Origin: a virus
Taxonomy: Duplodnaviria; Heunggongvirae; Uroviricota; Caudoviricetes
Strand: one strand, 5' to 3'
Length of the DNA stretch: 38,183 bases
IMG/VR virus record: IMGVR_UViG_2713896906_000008
A program made the position numbers and the translations under genes. This document shows positions 1 to 9,589 of this stretch, piece by piece (position 1 is the first letter of the stretch; every line of letters starts with the position of its first letter). Below the pieces are notes generated by a model that had not been told where the DNA came from, did no database searches, and saw nothing but the letters and a program-made list of their open reading frames with translations.

Positions 1-1053
1 TTACGGGGTAATGCCAACCGCTGCCGCCACTTTGTCGCCACTTGGCAGCGTTGCCAGAGGATTGAAACGGAGCGCCGTTTCCAGATGATCCGGTGCCAGA
101 TGTGCGTAACGCATCGTCATTTTTATATCGTGATGTCCGAGGATTTTTTGCAAAGCAAGGATATTTCCACCCGACATCATGAAATGCGCCGCAAACGTAT
201 GGCGCAGAACGTGTGTCAGTTGACCGCGAGGGAGCACGATAGACGTTTTTTCCATCACGGATAAAAATTGAAAATAGCAGTCTGTGAAGAAATTGAAACC
301 ATCAAGCGCCATGATCTCTTCGTAAAGCTCTTTACTGATAGGGATGCTTCTGTTTTTCTTCCCCTTCGTTCTTACAAAGGTAATTCGGTATTTAGTCACC
401 TGTGAACGGGTAAGATTTATTGCTTCTCGCCAGCGTGCGCCTGTGCTTAAGCATATCTTGACTACCAGTGCCAGAATTGGGTCCTGACGTTTGCAATCAG
501 CCAGCAATTCAACAATCTGCTCATGGGTAAGCCATGCCATCTCTTTTTCTGCGATGGTGAATTTTCGCATGTTCTCCAGTGGGTTCGGATACGACCATTC
601 GCCCAGACGGGATAGTTCGCTAAAAACACTACTTAGATAGCTTTGCTCCAGGTTAATGGTGACCGGGCTTGCTCCTTTCTTCCATTTCTCGCTGAAGTAG
701 ATCTCGCCTGTCAGTCGTTTATCTCGATAGTGGGCAAACATTTTAGAGGTGAGATCGGTTGCAAGAGGATTGCCCAGAGCGTCAACCATCAACAGCAATT
801 TGTCATAGACATGCTGCCCAGCTGTCAGAGATTTACCATGTAGTTTGAACCATAGCTCAACCACGTCTTTCAGTGTTCGACGATCCACTGATTCACCCAG
901 CCAGGGCTTTGCTTCGGTTTCTTCCATCGTGTGACGCTCAAAAGCCAGTGCTTCGCCTTTGGTGGCGAATTGTTTACGCACACGACGCCCACTTCGTCCG
1001 GCGGGGTAACATTCGCAAAGCCATTTCCCTGTGGTGAGTTTTCGTACTGCCAT
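1..1053 (-). CDS. int: P2/186-family tyrosine integrase
   Basis: 350-aa ORF; C-terminal HVLRHTFAAHF...GHHDIKMTMRYAHL fits the tyrosine recombinase R-H-R-Y catalytic region; leftmost prophage gene as in P2/186. Window begins at its stop codon. Confidence 0.92.
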   Translation of the reverse strand: MAVRKLTTGKWLCECYPAGRSGRRVRKQFATKGEALAFERHTMEETEAKPWLGESVDRRTLKDVVELWFKLHGKSLTAGQHVYDKLLLMVDALGNPLATDLTSKMFAHYRDKRLTGEIYFSEKWKKGASPVTINLEQSYLSSVFSELSRLGEWSYPNPLENMRKFTIAEKEMAWLTHEQIVELLADCKRQDPILALVVKICLSTGARWREAINLTRSQVTKYRITFVRTKGKKNRSIPISKELYEEIMALDGFNFFTDCYFQFLSVMEKTSIVLPRGQLTHVLRHTFAAHFMMSGGNILALQKILGHHDIKMTMRYAHLAPDHLETALRFNPLATLPSGDKVAAAVGITP

Positions 1054-1077
1054 AAAAAAGCCCTCATGTCAGAGGGC
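1054..1077 (-). terminator. hairpin (gccctc/gagggc) followed by T6 on the minus strand, ending the cargo operon immediately upstream of the int start codon
   Basis: Inverted repeat 1060-1065/1072-1077 with A-run 1054-1059 on the plus strand (T-run on minus). Confidence 0.4.
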
Positions 1078-1133
1078 TAAATTTAACTGTATGTTTGACC
1101 AGTGGTCAATGTATGGTTTGTGAAATCCATACA

Positions 1134-1664
1134 TTACCTTAATTTATCAAGCTCTCGTTTATTTCTTTTATCATGTATATCATTAAGAAATAATATATTA
1201 CTAGCAATGATACTAAATAACGCTATTATTTGTAGATATACTAATAACGCTGTGATAAAAAATCCAAACTTGCAGAACACGTGCTTATGCAAGGAAATGA
1301 AATCCAGATTTGAAAATATAGGTTTCGTTAAATTTATTATAACAATAGAAAATATTACAATAGCTGAAATTATAATGGTTTTCACTATCAGAGTAATTCG
1401 CTCAATATCTTTTTCTGTTTCCTTATGATAGTTTATACTAGTTATTGTTGATGGCTTTACAATTGAACTTACAGCTGCAGGGTAAATATATGCAAGCCAA
1501 ATACCTGCAATAGTGAAGATCATTGCAGAAATGTTTTGCAAGGTAGATAAAATATCTTTTATATCTGCATACGTATATTTATCTCCGAACAAATAAGCAA
1601 TAGCTATAATTGTTAGGAGAAAACATATGTGCAAAATTTTAGGTTTTATAATCATACTATGCAC
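1134..1664 (-). CDS. small inner-membrane protein with four predicted TM helices (cargo; RexB-like topology and position)
   Basis: 176-aa ORF with four hydrophobic segments; AT-rich; start overlaps stop of upstream 400-aa ORF (first ATG at 1655 lies 1 nt after the upstream TAG; track start 1664 is GTG). Confidence 0.6.
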   Translation of the reverse strand: MHSMIIKPKILHICFLLTIIAIAYLFGDKYTYADIKDILSTLQNISAMIFTIAGIWLAYIYPAAVSSIVKPSTITSINYHKETEKDIERITLIVKTIIISAIVIFSIVIINLTKPIFSNLDFISLHKHVFCKFGFFITALLVYLQIIALFSIIASNILFLNDIHDKRNKRELDKLR

Positions 1665-2859
1665 CTATTTTATGAATCTGCACTGTTGTATCATTATCAG
1701 CTTCTGGTTGTTCTATTATATCTTCATTTTTAAAACAATTCACCAAATCATTTCTATGAGCTTTTACTACACTCATTAAATATGAAGAAGAGTAATGTTT
1801 GTTTCTGTTAGAAAGGTCAACGTGAATTTCATGGCGATAAACATATTCATCTAACCAAGTAGTTGAACCATTTTTCCCATTTATTTTGAATCCGATGCGT
1901 GCGTGATCATTCCCTACATTCTCATTGTTGTTTTCTGTATCTTCTGAAATAGGATTGTGGTTTTCTATATATTCATCGATGAGTTTAGTGAACTCTTCAG
2001 GCGTAGGCGTTCCTTCGACTAATAATTCAACGCGATGTTTTTTTGATAAAATAGGAGAGCTTCTTGAGAAAACATCTCCAACTGCATCAAATAACTTCTG
2101 CCATTTTTCCCGTGTATCAGGTATGTTTGTTTCTATTACGTCATGGTAAACAATGTGAGTGATTTTTTTACACAGTTCTTCTATGTTTGCTCCACTCGTG
2201 ATCATCCTTGTTTGTTTAGTCTGTACTTTAAAAACTAAACTTTCATCATCACCTTGAGAAAAAAGAACACGTTTGTAATGAACGTCTTCAGGTGAGTCAT
2301 TACGAGGACGAGTCATATCTATGACTTTTTTATTAGGATGCTCCATCCTAAAGTCAACGTATGCTTTAATATAATGACAGAAAAGATCTGTATCCGTATT
2401 AGAACTTGGGAATCGTATGGATGCAATTTTGTTATATTCTGGAATTACCCAATAGTAGCAAGGTACGCCCCAGATATATTTACCGCCACCTTGAGTATCA
2501 GAGGCGGATACAACATTATCTGAAGTGCCGTCAATCTTACTTTCAGCATCTATACCTTGAATATTTCCAGAGTTATCACCGAGCGTTTTCCAGATAACAA
2601 ATAGATAATCTCCTGTCGTACTGTCATATGAAATATTTTTACAGTATGCTTTTGTTCTTCTATTATTATCCTTTCCCCATGGAACAGATTGTTCAACTGT
2701 TCTTGAACAGATCCAGCTATGTAAGTTACACAGAACATGGGATAAGTTCTTTTCGACTAATTCCGGCGATTTGCCTTGTCGTATTTTATAAAGGCCAAAC
2801 ATTTCTAAATCAAAAAATGTTATAATGCCGCGTTCAGTTTTAAAGTTGGTTTTACTCAT
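1657..2859 (-). CDS. hypothetical 400-aa soluble protein (cargo, co-oriented with cI)
   Basis: Long uninterrupted ORF in AT-rich island between cI and int; no motif recognised. Confidence 0.65.
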   Translation of the reverse strand: MSKTNFKTERGIITFFDLEMFGLYKIRQGKSPELVEKNLSHVLCNLHSWICSRTVEQSVPWGKDNNRRTKAYCKNISYDSTTGDYLFVIWKTLGDNSGNIQGIDAESKIDGTSDNVVSASDTQGGGKYIWGVPCYYWVIPEYNKIASIRFPSSNTDTDLFCHYIKAYVDFRMEHPNKKVIDMTRPRNDSPEDVHYKRVLFSQGDDESLVFKVQTKQTRMITSGANIEELCKKITHIVYHDVIETNIPDTREKWQKLFDAVGDVFSRSSPILSKKHRVELLVEGTPTPEEFTKLIDEYIENHNPISEDTENNNENVGNDHARIGFKINGKNGSTTWLDEYVYRHEIHVDLSNRNKHYSSSYLMSVVKAHRNDLVNCFKNEDIIEQPEADNDTTVQIHKIGA

Positions 2860-2939: not shown

Positions 2940-3821
2940 TTAATTCGAAATGATTGTGCTTCTTATGCATGCAACTACCTCGATATCAGAAAATGCACAT
3001 TCAAAGTAAGTTTCTTTACTTCTGATATTTATCATACCTTTAGGTAGCCTAGTAATTTGTCTGACGGAATAGGTTCCATCAATATTAATTAACCAGTATC
3101 CATCTAATACATCAGAAAATTTCTGATCACAGATGTATGCCACTAAACCATCCTGAACGACAATTGGTGCTGAAAGATTAGCGGGTAAAAATGACGAATC
3201 GAAAATATATGAGCCACTCTCAACCATTTTGCCTGCATTGAGATGAAATTTAGGCAGTTCTTTTACCGATGTTGTGAGAGCATTGTGCTCGCTGCCTTGT
3301 CCAGTGGCTAGCCATAAAAGAGAATTTCCTGTTTCCAACGAACATTTTATGATCCAATCAGCCGGGAATGTGTCTCGCAAATATCTATTTGCCATAGTGC
3401 TTTTAGATACATTCAGATGGTCGGCAAGTTCTTGTCTTGTTTTAAAGCCATACGCTTTCATTAGCCTGTCTATTGCATCACGTCCGCCTGAGTCCAAATT
3501 CAGATCGTTCCCAATTGGGGACTTCAGGGTGGTGGCTTGGGAAACGTGCTGAACCTTTGATGCAGTTGCCTTTGGCATGACCGGAGCCTCAGTACTCTGA
3601 GGGAATGGTACGCCTTTTCCGAATGAGAGCCACTCGATAGATGCACCCGTTTCAATTGCACACTGAATTACCCAGTCAGCAGGAAATACGTCACGCATCC
3701 AGCGCGTGCCCATAGTGCTTGCAGATACGTTGAACTGTTCGCACAGAGCTTGCCTTGTCTTGAATCCATACGCTTCAAGCATGCGCGTTATGACTGCTTG
3801 TCCTCCGTTTTTGAAATTCAT
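2940..3821 (-). CDS. cI: CI-type immunity repressor with tandemly duplicated N-terminal DNA-binding domain
   Basis: Two paralogous segments (LEAYGFKTRQALCEQFNVSASTMGTRWMRDVFPADWVIQCAIETGASIEWL and MKAYGFKTRQELADHLNVSKSTMANRYLRDTFPADWIIKCSLETGNSLLWL) resembling the 186 CI N-terminal domain, plus a C-terminal domain; divergent from apl/cII. Confidence 0.8.
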   Translation of the reverse strand: MNFKNGGQAVITRMLEAYGFKTRQALCEQFNVSASTMGTRWMRDVFPADWVIQCAIETGASIEWLSFGKGVPFPQSTEAPVMPKATASKVQHVSQATTLKSPIGNDLNLDSGGRDAIDRLMKAYGFKTRQELADHLNVSKSTMANRYLRDTFPADWIIKCSLETGNSLLWLATGQGSEHNALTTSVKELPKFHLNAGKMVESGSYIFDSSFLPANLSAPIVVQDGLVAYICDQKFSDVLDGYWLINIDGTYSVRQITRLPKGMINIRSKETYFECAFSDIEVVACIRSTIISN

Positions 3822-6001: not shown

Positions 6002-6855
6002 GCACCATCCTGAAATGGGCGGGAAATAAAACCGCCATAATGTCCGAACTGAAAAAACACCTTCCTGCTGGCCCGCGACTGGTTGAACCTTTCGCGGGTT
6101 CCTGTGCTGTGATGATGGAGACGGATTATCCAAGCTATCTGGTTGCGGATATTAATCCTGATTTAATCAACCTCTATAAAAAGGTTGCCGCTGATTGTGA
6201 ATCGTTTATATCTCGCGCCAGAGTTTTATTTAAGGAAGCAAACAGGGAGGTGGCTTATTACAACATAAGGCAGGAGTTTAATTACTCAACTGAAATTACT
6301 GATTTCATGAAAGCGGTATATTTCCTGTATCTCAATCGTCACGGTTACCGTGGTTTATGTCGCTATAACAAGAGCGGGCATTTCAACATTCCCTACGGTA
6401 ATTATAAAAATCCGTATTTCCCTGAAAAAGAAATTCGCACATTTGCAGAAATGGCCCAGCGAGCAACGTTTATCTGCGCCAGCTTTGATGAAACGCTGGC
6501 GATGTTGAAGGCGGGGGATGTGGTGTATTGCGATCCGCCGTATGACGGTACGTTTTCCGGCTATCACACTGACGGCTTCACTGAAGATGACCAGTATCAC
6601 CTGGCATCTGTTCTTGAACATCGGTCATCAGAAGGACATCCGGTCATTGTTTCTAACAGTGACACATCCCTGATCCGTTCGCTGTATCGCAATTTTACTC
6701 ACCACTACATCAAGGCAAAACGCAGCATCGGTGTGGCAGCTGGCGAGGGTAAATCAGCAACAGAAATCATTGCTGTTTCCGGGCCGCGCTGCTGGGTGGG
6801 ATTTGATTATTCGCGTGGCGTGGACAGTTCTGCCGTGTACGGAGTACGTGCATGA
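5998..6855 (+). CDS. dam: DNA adenine methyltransferase (Dam-like, N6-adenine)
   Basis: [16 protein letters not shown] (AdoMet motif) and DPPY (catalytic motif); ATGA overlap with the TraR-like gene; frame start at ATG 5998 rather than track start 5938. Confidence 0.85.
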
Positions 6856-9266
6856 GTCATGCCGATATGAACAACTGCTGCGGCTTTAACGAGGCTGCCG
6901 CATCGTTCTCATGGAACAGCCCGAAAAAGGCCATTAACCCTTATCTGGACCCGGCGGAAGTTGCGCCGGTTTCTGCGCTTTCAAACCTGATCACTCTGTA
7001 CGCTGCCGATAACGAGCAGGAACAACTGCGCCGCGAGGCACTGAGTGATCAGGTCTGGGAGCGTTATTTCTTTAATGAATCCCGTGATCCTGTCCAGCGC
7101 GAAATGGAGCAGGATAAGCTCATTAGCCGGGCAAAGCTGGCGCATGAGCAGCAGCGTTTTAATCCAGACATGGTCATTCTGGCGGACGTCAACGCCCAGC
7201 CTTCCCATATCAGCAAGCCGCTGATGCAACGTATTAAATACTTCAGCAGCCTGGGCAGGCCAAAGGCTTATTCCCGCTATTTGCGTGAGACGATTAAGCC
7301 ATGCCTGGAACGACTGGAGCATGTGCGCGACAGTCAGCTATCCACTTCTTTTCGCTTTATGGCAAGCCATGAAGGGCTGGACGGCCTGCTAATCCTGCCT
7401 GAAATGAGTCAGGATCAGGTGAAACGCCTGTCCACCCTGGTAGCTGCGCATATGAGCATGTGCCTTGATGCAGCTTGTGGTGATTTGTACGCCACCGATG
7501 ATGTTAAGCCAGAAGAAATCCGCAAGACATGGGAAAAGGTGGCAGCAGAAACCCTGCGACTGGATGTTATCCCGCCTGCGTTTGAGCAACTTCGTCGGAA
7601 AAGAAACCGCCGTAAACCCGTGCCCTATGAACTCATTCCGGGGTCGCTGGCGCGTATGTTGTGCGCTGACTGGTGGTATCGGAAATTATGGAAGATGCGT
7701 TGCGAATGGCGGGAAGAGCAGTTGCGCGCTGTCTGCCTGGTTAGCAAAAAAGCATCACCTTATGTCAGCTATGAAGCCGTGATGCATAAACGTGAGCAGC
7801 GCCGTAAGTCGCTGGAGTTTTTCCGTTCTCATGAACTGGTGAACGAAGACGGCGACACGCTGGACATGGAGGGTGTGGTAAACGCCAGCAGCAGCAACCC
7901 TGCGCATCGCCGCAATGAGATGATGGCCTGTGTTAAAGGCCTGGAGCTTATCGCGGAAATGCGCGGTGACTGCGCCGTTTTCTACACCATCACCTGTCCG
8001 TCACGTTTCCATTCCACGCAAAATAACGGCAGGCCCAACCTGACCTGGACAAATGCGACGGTAAGACAAAGCAGTGATTATCTGGTCGGTATGTTTGCTG
8101 CATTTCGTAAGGCGATGCACAAAGCCGGATTGCGCTGGTATGGCGTGCGGGTGGCTGAGCCGCATCATGACGGTACAGTTCACTGGCACCTGTTGTGTTT
8201 TATGCGCAAAAAAGATCGTCGCGCCATTACTGCTTTGTTGCGTAAGTTTGCCATTCGTGAAGACCGAGAGGAGCTGGGGAATAACACGGGACCACGCTTT
8301 AAGTCTGAGTTGATTAACCCGCGCAAAGGAACGCCGACAAGCTACATCGCGAAATATATCAGCAAGAACATTGACGGGCGTGGTCTGGCTGGCGAGATCA
8401 GCAAGGAAACGGGTAAATCTCTGCGTGATAACGCTGAATACGTGAATGCCTGGGCGTCTTTGCATCGTGTTCAGCAATTCCGCTTCTTTGGCATTCCGGG
8501 GCGCCAGGCTTACCGTGAACTGCGATTGCTGGCTGGTCAGGCGGCAAGGCAACAGGGGGACAAAAAAGCAGGTACGCCGGTACTGGATAACCCGCGCCTT
8601 GATGCAATCCTGGCTGCTGCTGATGCTGGTTGTTTTGCCACTTACATCATGAAGCAGGGCGGCGTACTGGTTCCCCGCAAATATCACCTTATCAGAACAG
8701 CTTATGAAATTAACGAAGAGCCGACCGCCTATGGCGATCACGGTATTCGTATTTATGGCATCTGGTCACCCATTGCAGAGGGCAAGATCTGCACTCATGC
8801 AGTGAAGTGGAAAATGGTTCGTAAGGCCGTTGACGTTCAGGAGGCGGCAGCCGACCAGGGCGCTTGCGCCCCTTGGACTCGTGGCAATAACTGTCCCCTT
8901 GCTGAAAATTTGAACCAACAGGAGAAAGATAAATCAACAGATGGGGATACCAGAACTGACATTACCTGTATGGATGACAAGGAGTTGCACGATTACCTGC
9001 ATAGTATGAGCAAAAAAGAGCGCCAGGAACTGGCAGCAAGATTACGCCTGGTGAAACCGAAACGGCGTAAAGACTACAAACAGCGAATTACAGAGTATCA
9101 GCGTCAGCAGCTCGTCTATGAACTGAAGTCAAGAGGATTTGATGGCAGCGAGAAAGAGGTCGATTTACTCCTTCGCGGTGGCAGTATTCCGTCAGGAGCA
9201 GGCCTGCGTATCTTCTATCGGAACCAGCGTTTGCAGGAAGATGATAAGTGGCGGAACCTGTATTAA
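6852..9266 (+). CDS. A: rolling-circle replication initiator (P2 gpA family)
   Basis: 804 aa; HUH-like VHWHLLCF and paired-tyrosine motif [10 protein letters not shown]; ATGA overlap with dam. Confidence 0.9.
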
Positions 9267-9359
9267 TCACGTGGGTTAACAATTCGTGCTCTTAATAATA
9301 CCAGGCATATCAGGCTGATGAACGTAAAAAACGTTTTACATCAGTAAGATTATTATATA

Positions 9360-9375
9360 CTGTAAATATAAACAG
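9360..9375. promoter_or_regulatory. LexA (SOS) box CTGTaaatataaACAG
   Basis: Near-consensus CTGT-N8-ACAG; preceded by TTTACA (-35-like) and followed by a strong SD and small ORF. Confidence 0.75.
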
Positions 9376-9418
9376 TGGTTGTGCATACAGTATTGCTTGT
9401 GGTGTCATAGGAGGAAAG

Positions 9419-9589
9419 ATGCAGGACTATTTTTTGGAGTCTTTGAAGCTCCAGCGCATTGATTTTTTTCTTAAGCTTGTAGCGGCTAGTGAGTGTAGTG
9501 ATGAAGAGAAGGGGCTGGCTCTGCAGTGGGTTTCTGAGTTGACTGATGAGCTGATGGCGAGAATTCGCGCTCATGAATACAACCACTAG
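9419..9589 (+). CDS. small SOS-controlled protein (56 aa), candidate antirepressor (Tum-like position)
   Basis: ATG preceded by GGAGGA 7 nt upstream, about 45 nt downstream of the LexA box; not in the ORF track because shorter than 60 aa. Confidence 0.5.
   Translation: MQDYFLESLKLQRIDFFLKLVAASECSDEEKGLALQWVSELTDELMARIRAHEYNH

What the first reader, a model, noticed from the sequence alone, without database searches (positions are those of the whole stretch)
9340..9589. Near-consensus LexA box driving a 56-aa ORF immediately after replication gene A
CTGTaaatataaACAG overlaps a promoter-like region and is followed by a GGAGGA SD and a 56-aa acidic ORF. Phage 186 is known to place its SOS-controlled antirepressor (tum) in the equivalent region, so this is a candidate small antirepressor. 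No terminator is evident before the exonuclease/kinase operon, so SOS induction might also read through into that module.
Basis: partly seen in the sequence, partly recalled or inferred. Interest (0 to 1): 0.55.

Follow-up and report, generated by a model that had tools for sequence, protein, structure and literature searches.

The report
SOS-controlled Tum antirepressor of P2-like prophage
This is the DNA-damage switch of a P2/186-family prophage: a LexA-repressed promoter driving a small antirepressor (Tum) that lifts CI repression. The near-identical gene in E. coli HS has already been shown to be needed for induction, so the finding is correct but ordinary.

Summary
A 17/20 match to the LexA consensus (TACTGTAAATATAAACAGTG, 9358-9377) lies in a p95-like promoter. 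It is followed by a GGAGGA ribosome-binding site and a 56-aa acidic ORF (9419-9589), directly after replication gene A.

Profile comparison links the ORF family to the N-terminal half of phage 186 Tum (hhalign 96.6%, E 4.7e-10). The ORF is 53/56 identical to Fels-2 STM2728 and to the E. coli HS "DuoHS" tum gene. Published in-frame deletion of that gene, like lexA(Ind-), abolishes mitomycin C induction (PMC12055606). About 20% of complete E. coli genomes carry the module. It is therefore already known, although RefSeq calls it hypothetical and PHROGs lists its family as unknown function.

Details I did not find described in the papers I could search:
- A second LexA box overlaps the first (9373-9392), with the geometry of the ColE1 colicin operator. 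It is conserved in about 25 of 32 related loci.
- This allele is cut 6 codons short by a nonsense change.
- The usual downstream dinI/tumB gene is replaced by an exonuclease plus PDC-M03 defence-candidate cargo. No terminator lies between, so read-through is possible but untested.
- Tum does not covary with the very diverse CI repressors.
- A second LexA-like operator sits upstream of int.

The parts
9335..9340 (+). -35 hexamer TTTACA of the tum promoter (p95-like)
   Evidence: At least 90% conserved across 32 distinct related operator regions, while the following 17 nt vary. Same position relative to the LexA box as the annotated -35 of 186 p95.
9356..9363 (+). -10 region TATACTGT: either TACTGT (9358-9363, 17-nt spacer, as annotated for 186 p95) or TATACT (9356-9361, 15-nt spacer). 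Both overlap LexA box 1.
   Evidence: Not called by the generic promoter scan.
9358..9377 (+). LexA box 1, TACTGTAAATATAAACAGTG (17/20 to consensus)
   Evidence: Found in 0 of 100 shuffles. Best LexA-like 20-mer in the window. Half-sites conserved in 32 loci.
9373..9392 (+). LexA box 2, CAGTGGTTGTGCATACAGTA. It overlaps box 1 by 5 nt (15-nt offset), with a weak left half (GTGG) and a perfect right half (ACAG).
   Evidence: Third-best LexA-like 20-mer in the window (approximate HI 11.2). A box at the same offset is present in about 25 of 32 related loci, whereas the -15 control position scores HI >= 25 in every locus where box 1 was identified correctly (L009 and the truncated L012 excepted). 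Same geometry as the ColE1 cea operator.
9410..9415 (+). Shine-Dalgarno GGAGGA, 3 nt before the ATG
   Evidence: Conserved as (A)GGAGG(G/A)AA(G/A)ATG in related loci.
9419..9589 (+). tum (TumA-type antirepressor), 56 aa. The stop codon TAG is at 9587-9589.
   Evidence: 53/56 identical to Fels-2 STM2728 and to E. coli HS ECHS_RS04495, the published tum. Homologous to 186 Tum residues 2-44. AF2 model is a two-helix hairpin with pLDDT 92.
9590..9606 (+). Remnant of the last codons of the ancestral 62-codon gene, now behind the premature stop
   Evidence: Still aligns with ATGGAT...stop of the HS and Fels-2 genes. The nearest 62-aa allele (strain 45E) reads ...EYNRVMDLLG* where the window reads ...EYNH*MDLPS.
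9607..9762 (+). Spacer to the downstream cargo. It has no intrinsic terminator and no called promoter. A hairpin at 9627-9663 lacks a U-run.
   Evidence: fold z-score -0.98. Homology to Fels-2 and HS ends here.
9763..11936 (+). Co-oriented cargo that occupies the place of dinI/tumB: an Rv2179c-like 3'-5' exonuclease, a HipA_C-like kinase and a HIRAN protein (the last two are PADLOC candidate system PDC-M03 A/B). Possible read-through target.
   Evidence: Found in only 6 of 5426 E. coli genomes and in no phage record.
2940..3821 (-). CI repressor, the presumed target of Tum. It is 186-type with a duplicated N-terminal HTH domain.
   Evidence: PF07022 (two stretches) + PF16452. 31% identical to 186 CI, 44% to Fels-2 CI, 49% to DuoHS CI.

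Best explanation
The region is the SOS-induction module of a Fels-2/186-like (P2-family) prophage.

In the lysogen, LexA occupies two overlapping operators (9358-9377 and 9373-9392). These cover the -10 region and transcription start of a p95-like promoter and keep the 56-aa tum gene silent. DNA damage activates RecA, LexA cleaves itself, and the promoter fires. The small acidic two-helix Tum protein accumulates, binds the prophage's 186-type CI repressor and stops it holding the lytic promoter, so the prophage enters lytic growth.

Shown here by sequence: the operator, promoter, SD and ORF; their conservation; homology to the N-terminal part of 186 Tum; and the presence of a 186-type CI.

Shown by others on near-identical or related genes: tum and cleavable LexA are both required for mitomycin C induction of E. 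coli HS DuoHS, and 186 Tum inhibits CI DNA binding.

Inferred only: that LexA binds both boxes cooperatively as at colicin operators; that this truncated allele still works; and that it acts on this particular double-HTH CI.
For: - LexA box: 17/20 to consensus, found in 0 of 100 shuffles. It is the best LexA-like site in the window, and box 2 is the third best.
- Conservation: -35, both boxes and the SD are conserved in 32 distinct loci from Escherichia, Citrobacter, Klebsiella, Enterobacter, Pantoea, Erwinia, Serratia and others.
- Layout: identical to the annotated p95/LexA/tum unit of 186. The gene sits in the same slot after gene A as in 186, PSP3 (tumA/tumB) and Fels-2.
- Homology to Tum residues 2-44: hhalign 96.6%, E 4.7e-10. 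Direct cross-family phmmer hits reach 8e-11. 186 Tum hits the window protein's PHROG family, and the two proteins also share weaker PHROG hits.
- Genetics: 53/56 identity to the E. coli HS gene that PMC12055606 deleted as tum. Primers NHR24 and NHR28 fuse exactly its ATG and TGA. Delta-tum and lexA(Ind-) abolish MMC-induced lysis and virion foci.
- Literature: Lemire et al. 2011 state that Fels-2 and PSP3 carry tum split in two, with the upstream gene encoding the antirepressor.
- Target: a 186-type CI is present.
- Fold: confident two-helix hairpin model (pLDDT 92), and the homologous core is intact.
Against: - Nothing was tested on this allele or this prophage.
- The protein is 6 residues shorter than the 62-aa norm because of a nonsense change.
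- Its CI has an extra HTH domain and is only 44-49% identical to the CIs of Fels-2 and DuoHS, so compatibility is assumed.
- Box 2 is weaker here (approximate HI 11.2) than in relatives (6.4-10.3).
- The generic promoter scan finds no sigma-70 site.
- Direct BLASTP to 186 Tum or PSP3 TumA finds nothing. The link rests on profiles and intermediate sequences.
- My HI values come from a matrix of sites recalled from memory.
Confidence: 0.85

Rival explanations
1. The module is a relic in this particular prophage. The LexA-controlled promoter is real, but the truncated Tum no longer inactivates this prophage's CI, so the prophage is not SOS-inducible through it.
For: - Premature stop at codon 57 relative to the 62-aa form found in 30 of 33 compared loci.
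- Box 2 spacer is more degenerate than in relatives.
- The CI has an unusual duplicated HTH and is 44-49% identical to the CIs paired with characterised tum genes.
- The dam gene is annotated as frameshifted in the closest complete genome.
- One related locus (L036) shows that operator and ORF can decay together.
Against: - The region homologous to Tum (residues 2-44) and both predicted helices are intact.
- The family's C-terminal tail is its most variable part.
- The same tum sequence, part of a 496-bp stretch from the end of gene A to the cargo, is 100% identical in four complete genomes and 99.6% in a fifth.
- PSP3 also has a double-HTH CI, and its record notes UV induction through tumA.
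Confidence: 0.1
2. In this prophage the main job of the SOS promoter has shifted to the cargo. After dinI/tumB was replaced, the LexA-controlled transcript reads through into the exonuclease / HipA-like kinase / HIRAN genes and makes that module DNA-damage inducible. Tum would then be a passenger or secondary product.
For: - No terminator-like site lies in the 173-nt gap, and no consensus promoter was found for the cargo.
- The cargo is co-oriented.
- In 186 the p95 transcript continues past tum into orf97.
- In Fels-2, STM2726-2728 were treated as one operon. That operon was among those flagged after treatment with a mutagen, though the direction of change was not seen.
- In 20 of 33 loci the next gene (dinI) follows tum by only 10-14 bp.
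Against: - Absence of a terminator in a simple scan is weak evidence.
- A perfect TATAAT at 9666-9671 could belong to a cargo promoter with a poor -35.
- Prophage defence cargo is normally expressed in the lysogen, not only after SOS (inference from general knowledge).
- Downstream cargo is on the opposite strand in several related loci, so co-transcription is not a conserved feature of the module.
Confidence: 0.1
3. The LexA-like sequence is a chance AT-rich palindrome in an intergenic region and the small ORF is not a gene.
For: The 16-nt core pattern alone is expected 0.61 times per window. The ORF has no Pfam or PADLOC family.
Against: - The 20-mer occurs in 0 of 100 shuffles.
- Operator half-sites, -35 and SD are conserved across genera while the spacers vary.
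- The protein family has 452 cluster hits with E <= 0.01 in the 5.8-billion-protein collection, and 64 representatives with E <= 0.001 in the 1.84-billion-protein library.
- There is genetic evidence for the ortholog.
Confidence: 0.01

Closest known systems
tum of E. coli HS prophage DuoHS (ECHS_RS04495, 62 aa) and its Fels-2 ortholog STM2728
   Same: - 53/56 identical protein.
- Upstream region identical through -35 and box 1.
- Same position after gene A.
- DuoHS sits at the same chromosomal site, next to rcdA, as the closest complete-genome relative of the window (SF-173).
- Delta-tum and lexA(Ind-) block MMC induction of DuoHS.
   Different: - The window allele stops 6 codons early.
- It is followed by an exonuclease/PDC-M03 cargo instead of dinI (tumB).
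- The box 2 spacer differs (TTGTGCAT against TTATACAT or TTATATGT).
- The CI is only 44-49% identical and has an extra HTH domain.
Tum antirepressor and the p95 SOS operon of coliphage 186
   Same: - LexA box whose first six bases are the -10 hexamer, with the gene directly after replication gene A.
- Residues 2-44 are homologous.
- Acts on a CI of the same Pfam architecture.
- 186 Tum inhibits CI DNA binding (record note; PMC7708051).
   Different: - 186 Tum is 146 aa, with a DinI-like C-terminal half and internal starts. The window protein is only the N-terminal module.
- 186 has a single LexA box; the window has two overlapping ones.
- Pairwise BLASTP is negative.
TumA/TumB of Salmonella phage PSP3
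   Same: - Split arrangement: a small upstream antirepressor gene (60 aa) under a LexA box.
- PSP3 CI also has a duplicated HTH (286 aa).
- Shared C-x6-[LI]AL-x-[LW][IV] motif.
   Different: - Only weak profile similarity to the window family (hhalign 9%, E 0.0036). PSP3 TumA is closer to 186 Tum (86%).
- PSP3 has a single LexA box and keeps tumB.
Dual overlapping SOS boxes of colicin operons (ColE1 cea)
   Same: - Two 20-mers offset by 15 nt that share CAGTG, the second with left half GTGG.
- ColE1 TGCTGTATATAAAACCAGTGGTTATATGTACAGTATT against window TACTGTAAATATAAACAGTGGTTGTGCATACAGTATT. Fels-2 is identical to ColE1 over the last 22 nt.
- Colicin dual boxes bind two LexA dimers and prevent untimely expression of a lethal product (PMC2994835).
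   Different: - It controls a prophage antirepressor, not a colicin.
- In ColE1 the boxes lie just downstream of the -10; here box 1 overlaps it.
- LexA binding to box 2 was not tested for any tum promoter that I could find.
LexA-controlled antirepressors of other temperate phages (Gifsy GfoA/GftA, N15 AntC)
   Same: Same logic: LexA represses a small antirepressor that binds a non-cleavable repressor (PMC3121763).
   Different: No sequence relationship was found. The gene order with dinI is reversed in the Gifsy phages.

Membership tests
186-type Tum / TumA antirepressor module | Sequence homology to the N-terminal (non-DinI) part of 186 Tum | tested here: met
   hhalign of the window family against the Tum N-terminal family: 96.6%, E 4.7e-10, residues 2-44 to 2-44. 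Cross-family phmmer hits reach 8e-11. Reciprocal PHROG hits. Pairwise BLASTP alone is negative.
186-type Tum / TumA antirepressor module | Gene located directly after replication gene A of a P2/186-family phage | tested here: met
   gpA (PF05840) ends at 9266 and the ORF starts at 9419. Same slot as in 186, PSP3, Fels-2 and DuoHS.
186-type Tum / TumA antirepressor module | Promoter overlapped by a LexA operator | tested here: met
   By sequence only: 17/20 consensus box starting at the -10, as in the annotated p95, conserved in 32 loci. LexA binding itself was not tested.
186-type Tum / TumA antirepressor module | Cognate repressor is a 186-type CI (non-cleavable, PF07022 HTH + PF16452 C-terminal domain) | tested here: met
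   Window CI 2940-3821(-) matches both domains (E 4.5e-59 and 1.2e-25) and has no LexA/S24 peptidase domain.
186-type Tum / TumA antirepressor module | Required for SOS (mitomycin C or UV) induction of the prophage | not testable with these tools
   Shown for the 95%-identical DuoHS gene. Not shown for this allele.
186-type Tum / TumA antirepressor module | Protein binds CI and prevents operator binding | not testable with these tools
   Reported for 186 Tum (Shearwin et al. 1998, as cited in PMC3121763 and PMC7708051).
186-type Tum / TumA antirepressor module | DinI-like moiety fused (186) or encoded by the next gene (tumB) | tested here: not met
   No dinI homolog lies downstream in the window, and 13 of 33 compared loci also lack it. 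It is not essential to the antirepressor role: in PSP3 the upstream gene alone carries that activity. This marks a variant rather than an exclusion.
Colicin-type dual overlapping SOS operator | Two LexA 20-mers offset by 15 nt and sharing 5 nt | tested here: met
   9358-9377 and 9373-9392. Same register as ColE1. Present in about 25 of 32 related loci, with the -15 control position never LexA-like in the loci where box 1 was identified correctly (L009 and truncated L012 excepted).
Colicin-type dual overlapping SOS operator | Binding of two LexA dimers giving tight repression and late induction | not testable with these tools
   Known for colicin operators (PMC2994835). Only inferred here.

The most novel reading that the evidence does not exclude
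One nearly invariant Tum works as a general key for many hetero-immune P2-family prophages. Across 26 loci, Tum identity (median 82%) is uncorrelated with CI identity (median 41%; Spearman -0.06). Pairs with at least 90% identical Tum have CIs that are a median 40% identical. The identical tum+cargo segment sits beside CIs whose C-terminal domains are only about 30% identical.

If Tum recognises the conserved HTH surface of all these CIs, then SOS induction of one prophage would trans-induce co-resident hetero-immune relatives, as reported for the Gifsy phages. Immunity type and induction key would then evolve independently. In this prophage the SOS regulon would also extend to int, through a second LexA operator, and possibly to the defence-candidate cargo.
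Probability: 0.3. Interest if true: 0.5.

Novelty: already known. Interest (0 to 1): 0.2.

Why it matters
As a discovery it matters little. LexA-controlled Tum antirepressors have been textbook for phage 186 since the 1990s, and the near-identical gene in E. coli HS has been knocked out with the expected phenotype.

The practical value is in annotation. The gene is labelled "hypothetical protein" in RefSeq, and its PHROG family is listed as unknown function. Yet it is the induction switch of a prophage type present in about a fifth of complete E. coli genomes. It also lies at the left edge of the gpA-gpQ defence hotspot of P2-like phages.

The side observations give cheap, testable questions about how tightly and how broadly these prophages respond to DNA damage. 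They are the colicin-style double operator, the lack of Tum-CI covariation, the SOS-like operator at int, and the possible SOS read-through into hotspot cargo.

Tried and rejected
- Pairwise BLASTP of the ORF against 186 Tum and PSP3 TumA found nothing. Homology appeared only through diverse family members and profiles.
- Pfam and PADLOC had no family for the ORF.
- A PDB sequence search found nothing. Foldseek of the AF2 model against PDB gave only generic helical hairpins (best E 0.83), so the fold says nothing about mechanism.
- Rfam on 9000-10000 gave only chance-level hits.
- The generic promoter/terminator scan of 9200-9850 found no promoter. The promoter was assigned by homology to 186 p95 instead.
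- Folding the tum-cargo spacer showed no significant structure (z -0.98).
- The cargo's wider context could not be traced. It occurs in 6 E. coli genomes and in no phage record.
- My crude terminator finder on 34 related loci was uninformative.
- I tested for Tum-CI covariation, expecting specificity pairing, and found none.
- The search for related loci with the diverse alignment failed for lack of a conserved stretch. I repeated it with closer sequences.
- Bunny et al. 2002, the original Fels-2/lexA paper, is not in the library. Its content is cited only through Lemire et al. 2011.
- The two P2 hotspot papers do not mention tum, LexA or SOS.
- The MX toxicogenomics paper lists the operon STM2726-2728 as flagged after a mutagen, but I could not see the direction of change. 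I use it only as weak support.

Full report
**1. What the window is**

The window is a P2/186-family prophage of E. coli. Its gene order is:
- int (1-1053, minus strand)
- two cargo genes
- a 186-type CI (2940-3821, minus strand)
- cII, a TraR/DksA-like gene and dam
- replication gene A (6852-9266, PF05840)
- the finding
- cargo, then the portal/terminase genes and the late genes

The segment 9269-9595 is 93-95% identical to Fels-2, to several Klebsiella and Escherichia phages, and to prophages in 1101 of 5426 complete E. coli genomes. Only 5 genomes match across the whole of 9267-9762.

**2. Observation check**

The LexA box:
- The full box TACTGTAAATATAAACAGTG (9358-9377) matches the consensus at 17/20.
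- The 16-nt core alone would be unremarkable: 0.61 are expected per window.
- The 20-mer with at most 3 mismatches never occurs in 100 shuffles.
- It is the best LexA-like 20-mer of the window under an approximate heterology index (4.6). I built the matrix from 16 E. coli sites recalled from memory, so these values are only indicative. They fall in the range published for real sites: recA 4.31, lexA 6.39/8.31, colicin E1 7.48/11.06 (PMC2994835).

The other elements:
- -35 TTTACA lies at 9335-9340.
- The -10 overlaps the start of the box, exactly as annotated for p95 of phage 186. The generic sigma-70 scan does not call this promoter.
- GGAGGA lies at 9410-9415 and the ATG at 9419.
- The ORF encodes 56 aa with net charge about -5.

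**3.

A second LexA-like box, CAGTGGTTGTGCATACAGTA, lies at 9373-9392 and overlaps box 1 by CAGTG. It is the third-best LexA-like 20-mer in the window (approximate HI 11.2).

I fetched 31 related loci from one-genome-per-species contigs and added Fels-2 and E. coli HS. Among these:
- The -35, both half-sites of box 1 and the right half-site of box 2 are conserved at 75-100%. The left half of box 2 is less so (GTGG, its last base conserved in only about 60-75% of regions). The promoter spacer and the N8 spacers vary.
- About 25 of 32 distinct regions have a box at the +15 offset.
- In the loci where box 1 was identified correctly, the -15 control position never scores below HI 25 (the exceptions are L009, where the scan picked box 2 so the -15 position is box 1, HI 6.9, and the truncated L012).

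The geometry is that of colicin operators. I confirmed that my recalled ColE1 sequence TGCTGTATATAAAACCAGTGGTTATATGTACAGTATT is exact in plasmid ColE1, directly upstream of the colicin E1 ORF. Fels-2 is identical to it over the last 22 nt.

Colicin dual boxes bind two LexA dimers and prevent untimely expression of a lethal product. The same logic fits a gene whose expression kills the lysogen. 186 and PSP3 have single boxes.

**4. What the ORF is**

Direct comparisons and curated libraries gave little:
- BLASTP to 186 Tum or PSP3 TumA finds nothing.
- There is no Pfam family.

Searches for relatives showed a sizeable family:
- The family has 452 cluster hits with E <= 0.01 in the 5.8-billion-protein collection.
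- It has 64 representatives with E <= 0.001 in the 1.84-billion-protein library, reaching down to about 37% identity.
- The shared motif is D-x3-E-x5-R-I-x11-C-x6-LA-x2-W-x2-EL.

Those distant members link the family to 186 Tum and, weakly, to PSP3 TumA:
- They hit stand-alone "Tum protein" homologs of the 186 Tum N-terminus directly (phmmer 8e-11).
- The profile-profile comparison gives 96.6% probability, E 4.7e-10, aligning residues 2-44 of both proteins.
- PSP3 TumA is related to 186 Tum (86%, E 5e-6). It is only weakly related to the window family.
- PHROG hits tie the three groups together: 186 Tum hits all three families, and the window protein hits its own family and, weakly, that of PSP3 TumA. 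All of these PHROGs are labelled "unknown function".

The structure adds little about function:
- AlphaFold2 gives a confident two-helix hairpin (H5-23, H28-54, pLDDT 92), with the conserved Cys26 in the turn.
- There is no informative structural match.

**5. Experimental evidence from the literature**

- Lemire et al. 2011 (PMC3121763) state that Tum is an antirepressor fused to a DinI-like half. They also state that Fels-2 and PSP3 have tum split in two by a stop codon, and that in PSP3 the upstream gene carries the antirepressor activity.
- The phage records annotate PSP3 tumA/tumB and, for Fels-2, STM2728 followed by a DinI/TumB gene.
- The decisive evidence is the Phollow paper (PMC12055606). 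It made an in-frame delta-tum in the E. coli HS P2-like prophage DuoHS. Delta-tum and lexA(Ind-) both abolish mitomycin C-induced lysis and virion foci.
- That paper's primers, NHR24 (reverse complement GTGGTGTCATAGGAGGAAAGATG+TGA) and NHR28 (...ATG TGA GGTGACTTTTATGCGCATTG), fuse the start and stop of ECHS_RS04495, a 62-aa "hypothetical protein".
- The first primer sequence is also exact in the window at 9399-9421.
- The window ORF is 53/56 identical to that gene.

**6. What is particular to this copy**

(a) The allele is truncated. The nearest 62-aa allele (strain 45E) reads ...AKIRAHEYNRVMDLLG*, while the window reads ...ARIRAHEYNH*. The remaining codons are still recognisable behind the stop. 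The Tum-homologous core is untouched, and the family's C-terminal tail is variable.

(b) The dinI/tumB gene is absent. It follows tum by 10-14 bp in 20 of 33 loci and is missing in 13, including the window.

(c) Homology to relatives ends at about 9606. Cargo follows: an Rv2179c-like 3'-5' exonuclease, then a HipA_C-like kinase and a HIRAN protein that match PADLOC candidate system PDC-M03 A/B. This cargo is rare: 6 E. coli genomes and no phage record.

(d) The 173-nt gap holds no terminator-like site and no significant structure.

Read-through from the SOS promoter is therefore possible. It has a precedent in 186, where p95 runs through tum into orf97. It remains untested, and related loci often have oppositely oriented cargo.

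**7. Tum and its target**

The window CI is 186-type with a duplicated HTH domain, like PSP3 CI. I expected the antirepressor and the repressor to covary, but they do not.
- In 26 loci, pairwise Tum identity (median 82%) is uncorrelated with CI identity (median 41%; Spearman -0.06, p 0.25).
- The 78 pairs with at least 90% identical Tum have CIs with a median identity of 40%.
- Strain SF-173 has the identical tum+cargo DNA. Its CI shares the two HTH domains with the window's CI (roughly 90% identical or more), while the C-terminal domain is only about 30% identical.
- Across loci the HTH domain is the conserved part of CI (median 62% against 34% for the C-terminal domain).

I infer that Tum recognises a conserved surface, plausibly on the HTH domain. 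That would fit an acidic protein that blocks DNA binding. This step is inference only.

**8. Mechanism and rivals**

The best explanation (confidence 0.85) is LexA-repressed expression of a Tum-type antirepressor that inactivates CI after DNA damage.

The rivals are:
- The allele or its pairing with CI is non-functional in this prophage (0.1).
- The promoter now mainly serves the cargo (0.1).
- The whole thing is chance (0.01; refuted by the conservation and the published genetics).

**9. Novelty and score**

The module is already known and very common. What the public annotation lacks is the name.

I did not find the following described in the papers I could search:
- the double operator
- the absence of Tum-CI covariation
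- the dinI-to-cargo replacement at the edge of the gpA-gpQ defence hotspot (the hotspot papers do not mention tum, LexA or SOS)
- the int operator

All of these are modest extensions of known biology. Interest is 0.2.

Noticed in passing
window 1054-1115 (minus strand, upstream of int); also L038 18306-18360: A second LexA-like operator lies about 50 nt upstream of the int ATG. On the int strand it reads CACTGGTCAAACATACAGTT (1104->1085). It is the second-best LexA-like 20-mer in the window (approximate HI 8.3).

It lies inside a promoter-like site TTGACC-18-TAAATT (1109->1080). A terminator-like hairpin AGCCCTC-tgacat-GAGGGCT plus a T-run follows (1078->1059). The hairpin abuts the int ATG and contains the likely SD.

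The arrangement is conserved in all 6 loci with this int type. E. coli HS has CACTGGTTATACATACAGTA (HI 4.4) within TTGACA-17-AAAAAT, and its hairpin arms differ from the window's by compensatory changes. This suggests that int is insulated from cI/cargo read-through and has its own SOS-controlled promoter, starting inside the hairpin's 5' arm. I found no paper describing this.
   Followed up: partly
window 9763-11936: The cargo in the gpA-gpQ hotspot has three genes: an Rv2179c-like 3'-5' exonuclease (PF16473), a HipA_C-like kinase and a HIRAN-domain protein. The last two match PADLOC candidate defence system PDC-M03 A/B (E 4e-36 each). The cargo is found in only 6 of 5426 complete E. coli genomes and in no phage record.
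   Followed up: partly
window 1134-2859 (minus strand): Two genes between int and cI (176 aa and 400 aa) match PADLOC candidate system PDC-M18 B/A (E 5e-24 and 2e-36). This is a second cargo slot. SF-173, which shares the tum-cargo region, carries different genes here.
   Followed up: no
window 2940-3821 (minus strand): The CI repressor has a duplicated N-terminal HTH domain (two PF07022 stretches, residues about 9-68 and 114-176), as in PSP3 CI. CI proteins are mosaics. The SF-173 CI shares both HTH domains with the window's CI (roughly 90% identical or more), but its C-terminal domain is only about 30% identical.
   Followed up: partly
whole window against E. coli genomes: The window is a mosaic not seen as a whole in the complete-genome collection. 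The int-cI part is 100% identical to strain 1105. The tum-cargo part is 100% identical to SF-173, FDAARGOS_1283, N1420 and GmF052, which carry a different int-cI region.
   Followed up: partly
L001 5090-5126 (Fels-2) and L039 401-437 (ColE1): The Fels-2 tum operator and the ColE1 colicin E1 operator share an identical 22-nt stretch, CAGTGGTTATATGTACAGTATT. This could reflect either strong constraint from tandem LexA binding or common descent of the operator.
   Followed up: no
window 12484-13484 (minus strand): Three tandem small ORFs (46, 63 and 45 aa) each contain a polyproline run followed by a similar motif...PPPPPPSKPPTRQV......PPPPPPPKPPITRLV......PPPPPRPTPPARRIV.... On the coding (minus) strand they lie directly downstream of a 216-aa ORF with hydrophobic stretches that look membrane-spanning (not tested) (12834-13484), all within the cargo hotspot.
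   Followed up: no
L036 about 9940-10063 (Siccibacter turicensis): In one related locus both the operator (CTGT...GTAT, approximate HI 16.7) and the tum ORF (20 aa) are degraded together. This is consistent with the promoter and gene being one functional unit that decays in a defective prophage.
   Followed up: no
protein P0049: One UniRef cluster of this Tum family is named 'Levan regulatory protein', which looks like a propagated misannotation. The named NCBI members are labelled 'hypothetical protein'.
   Followed up: no
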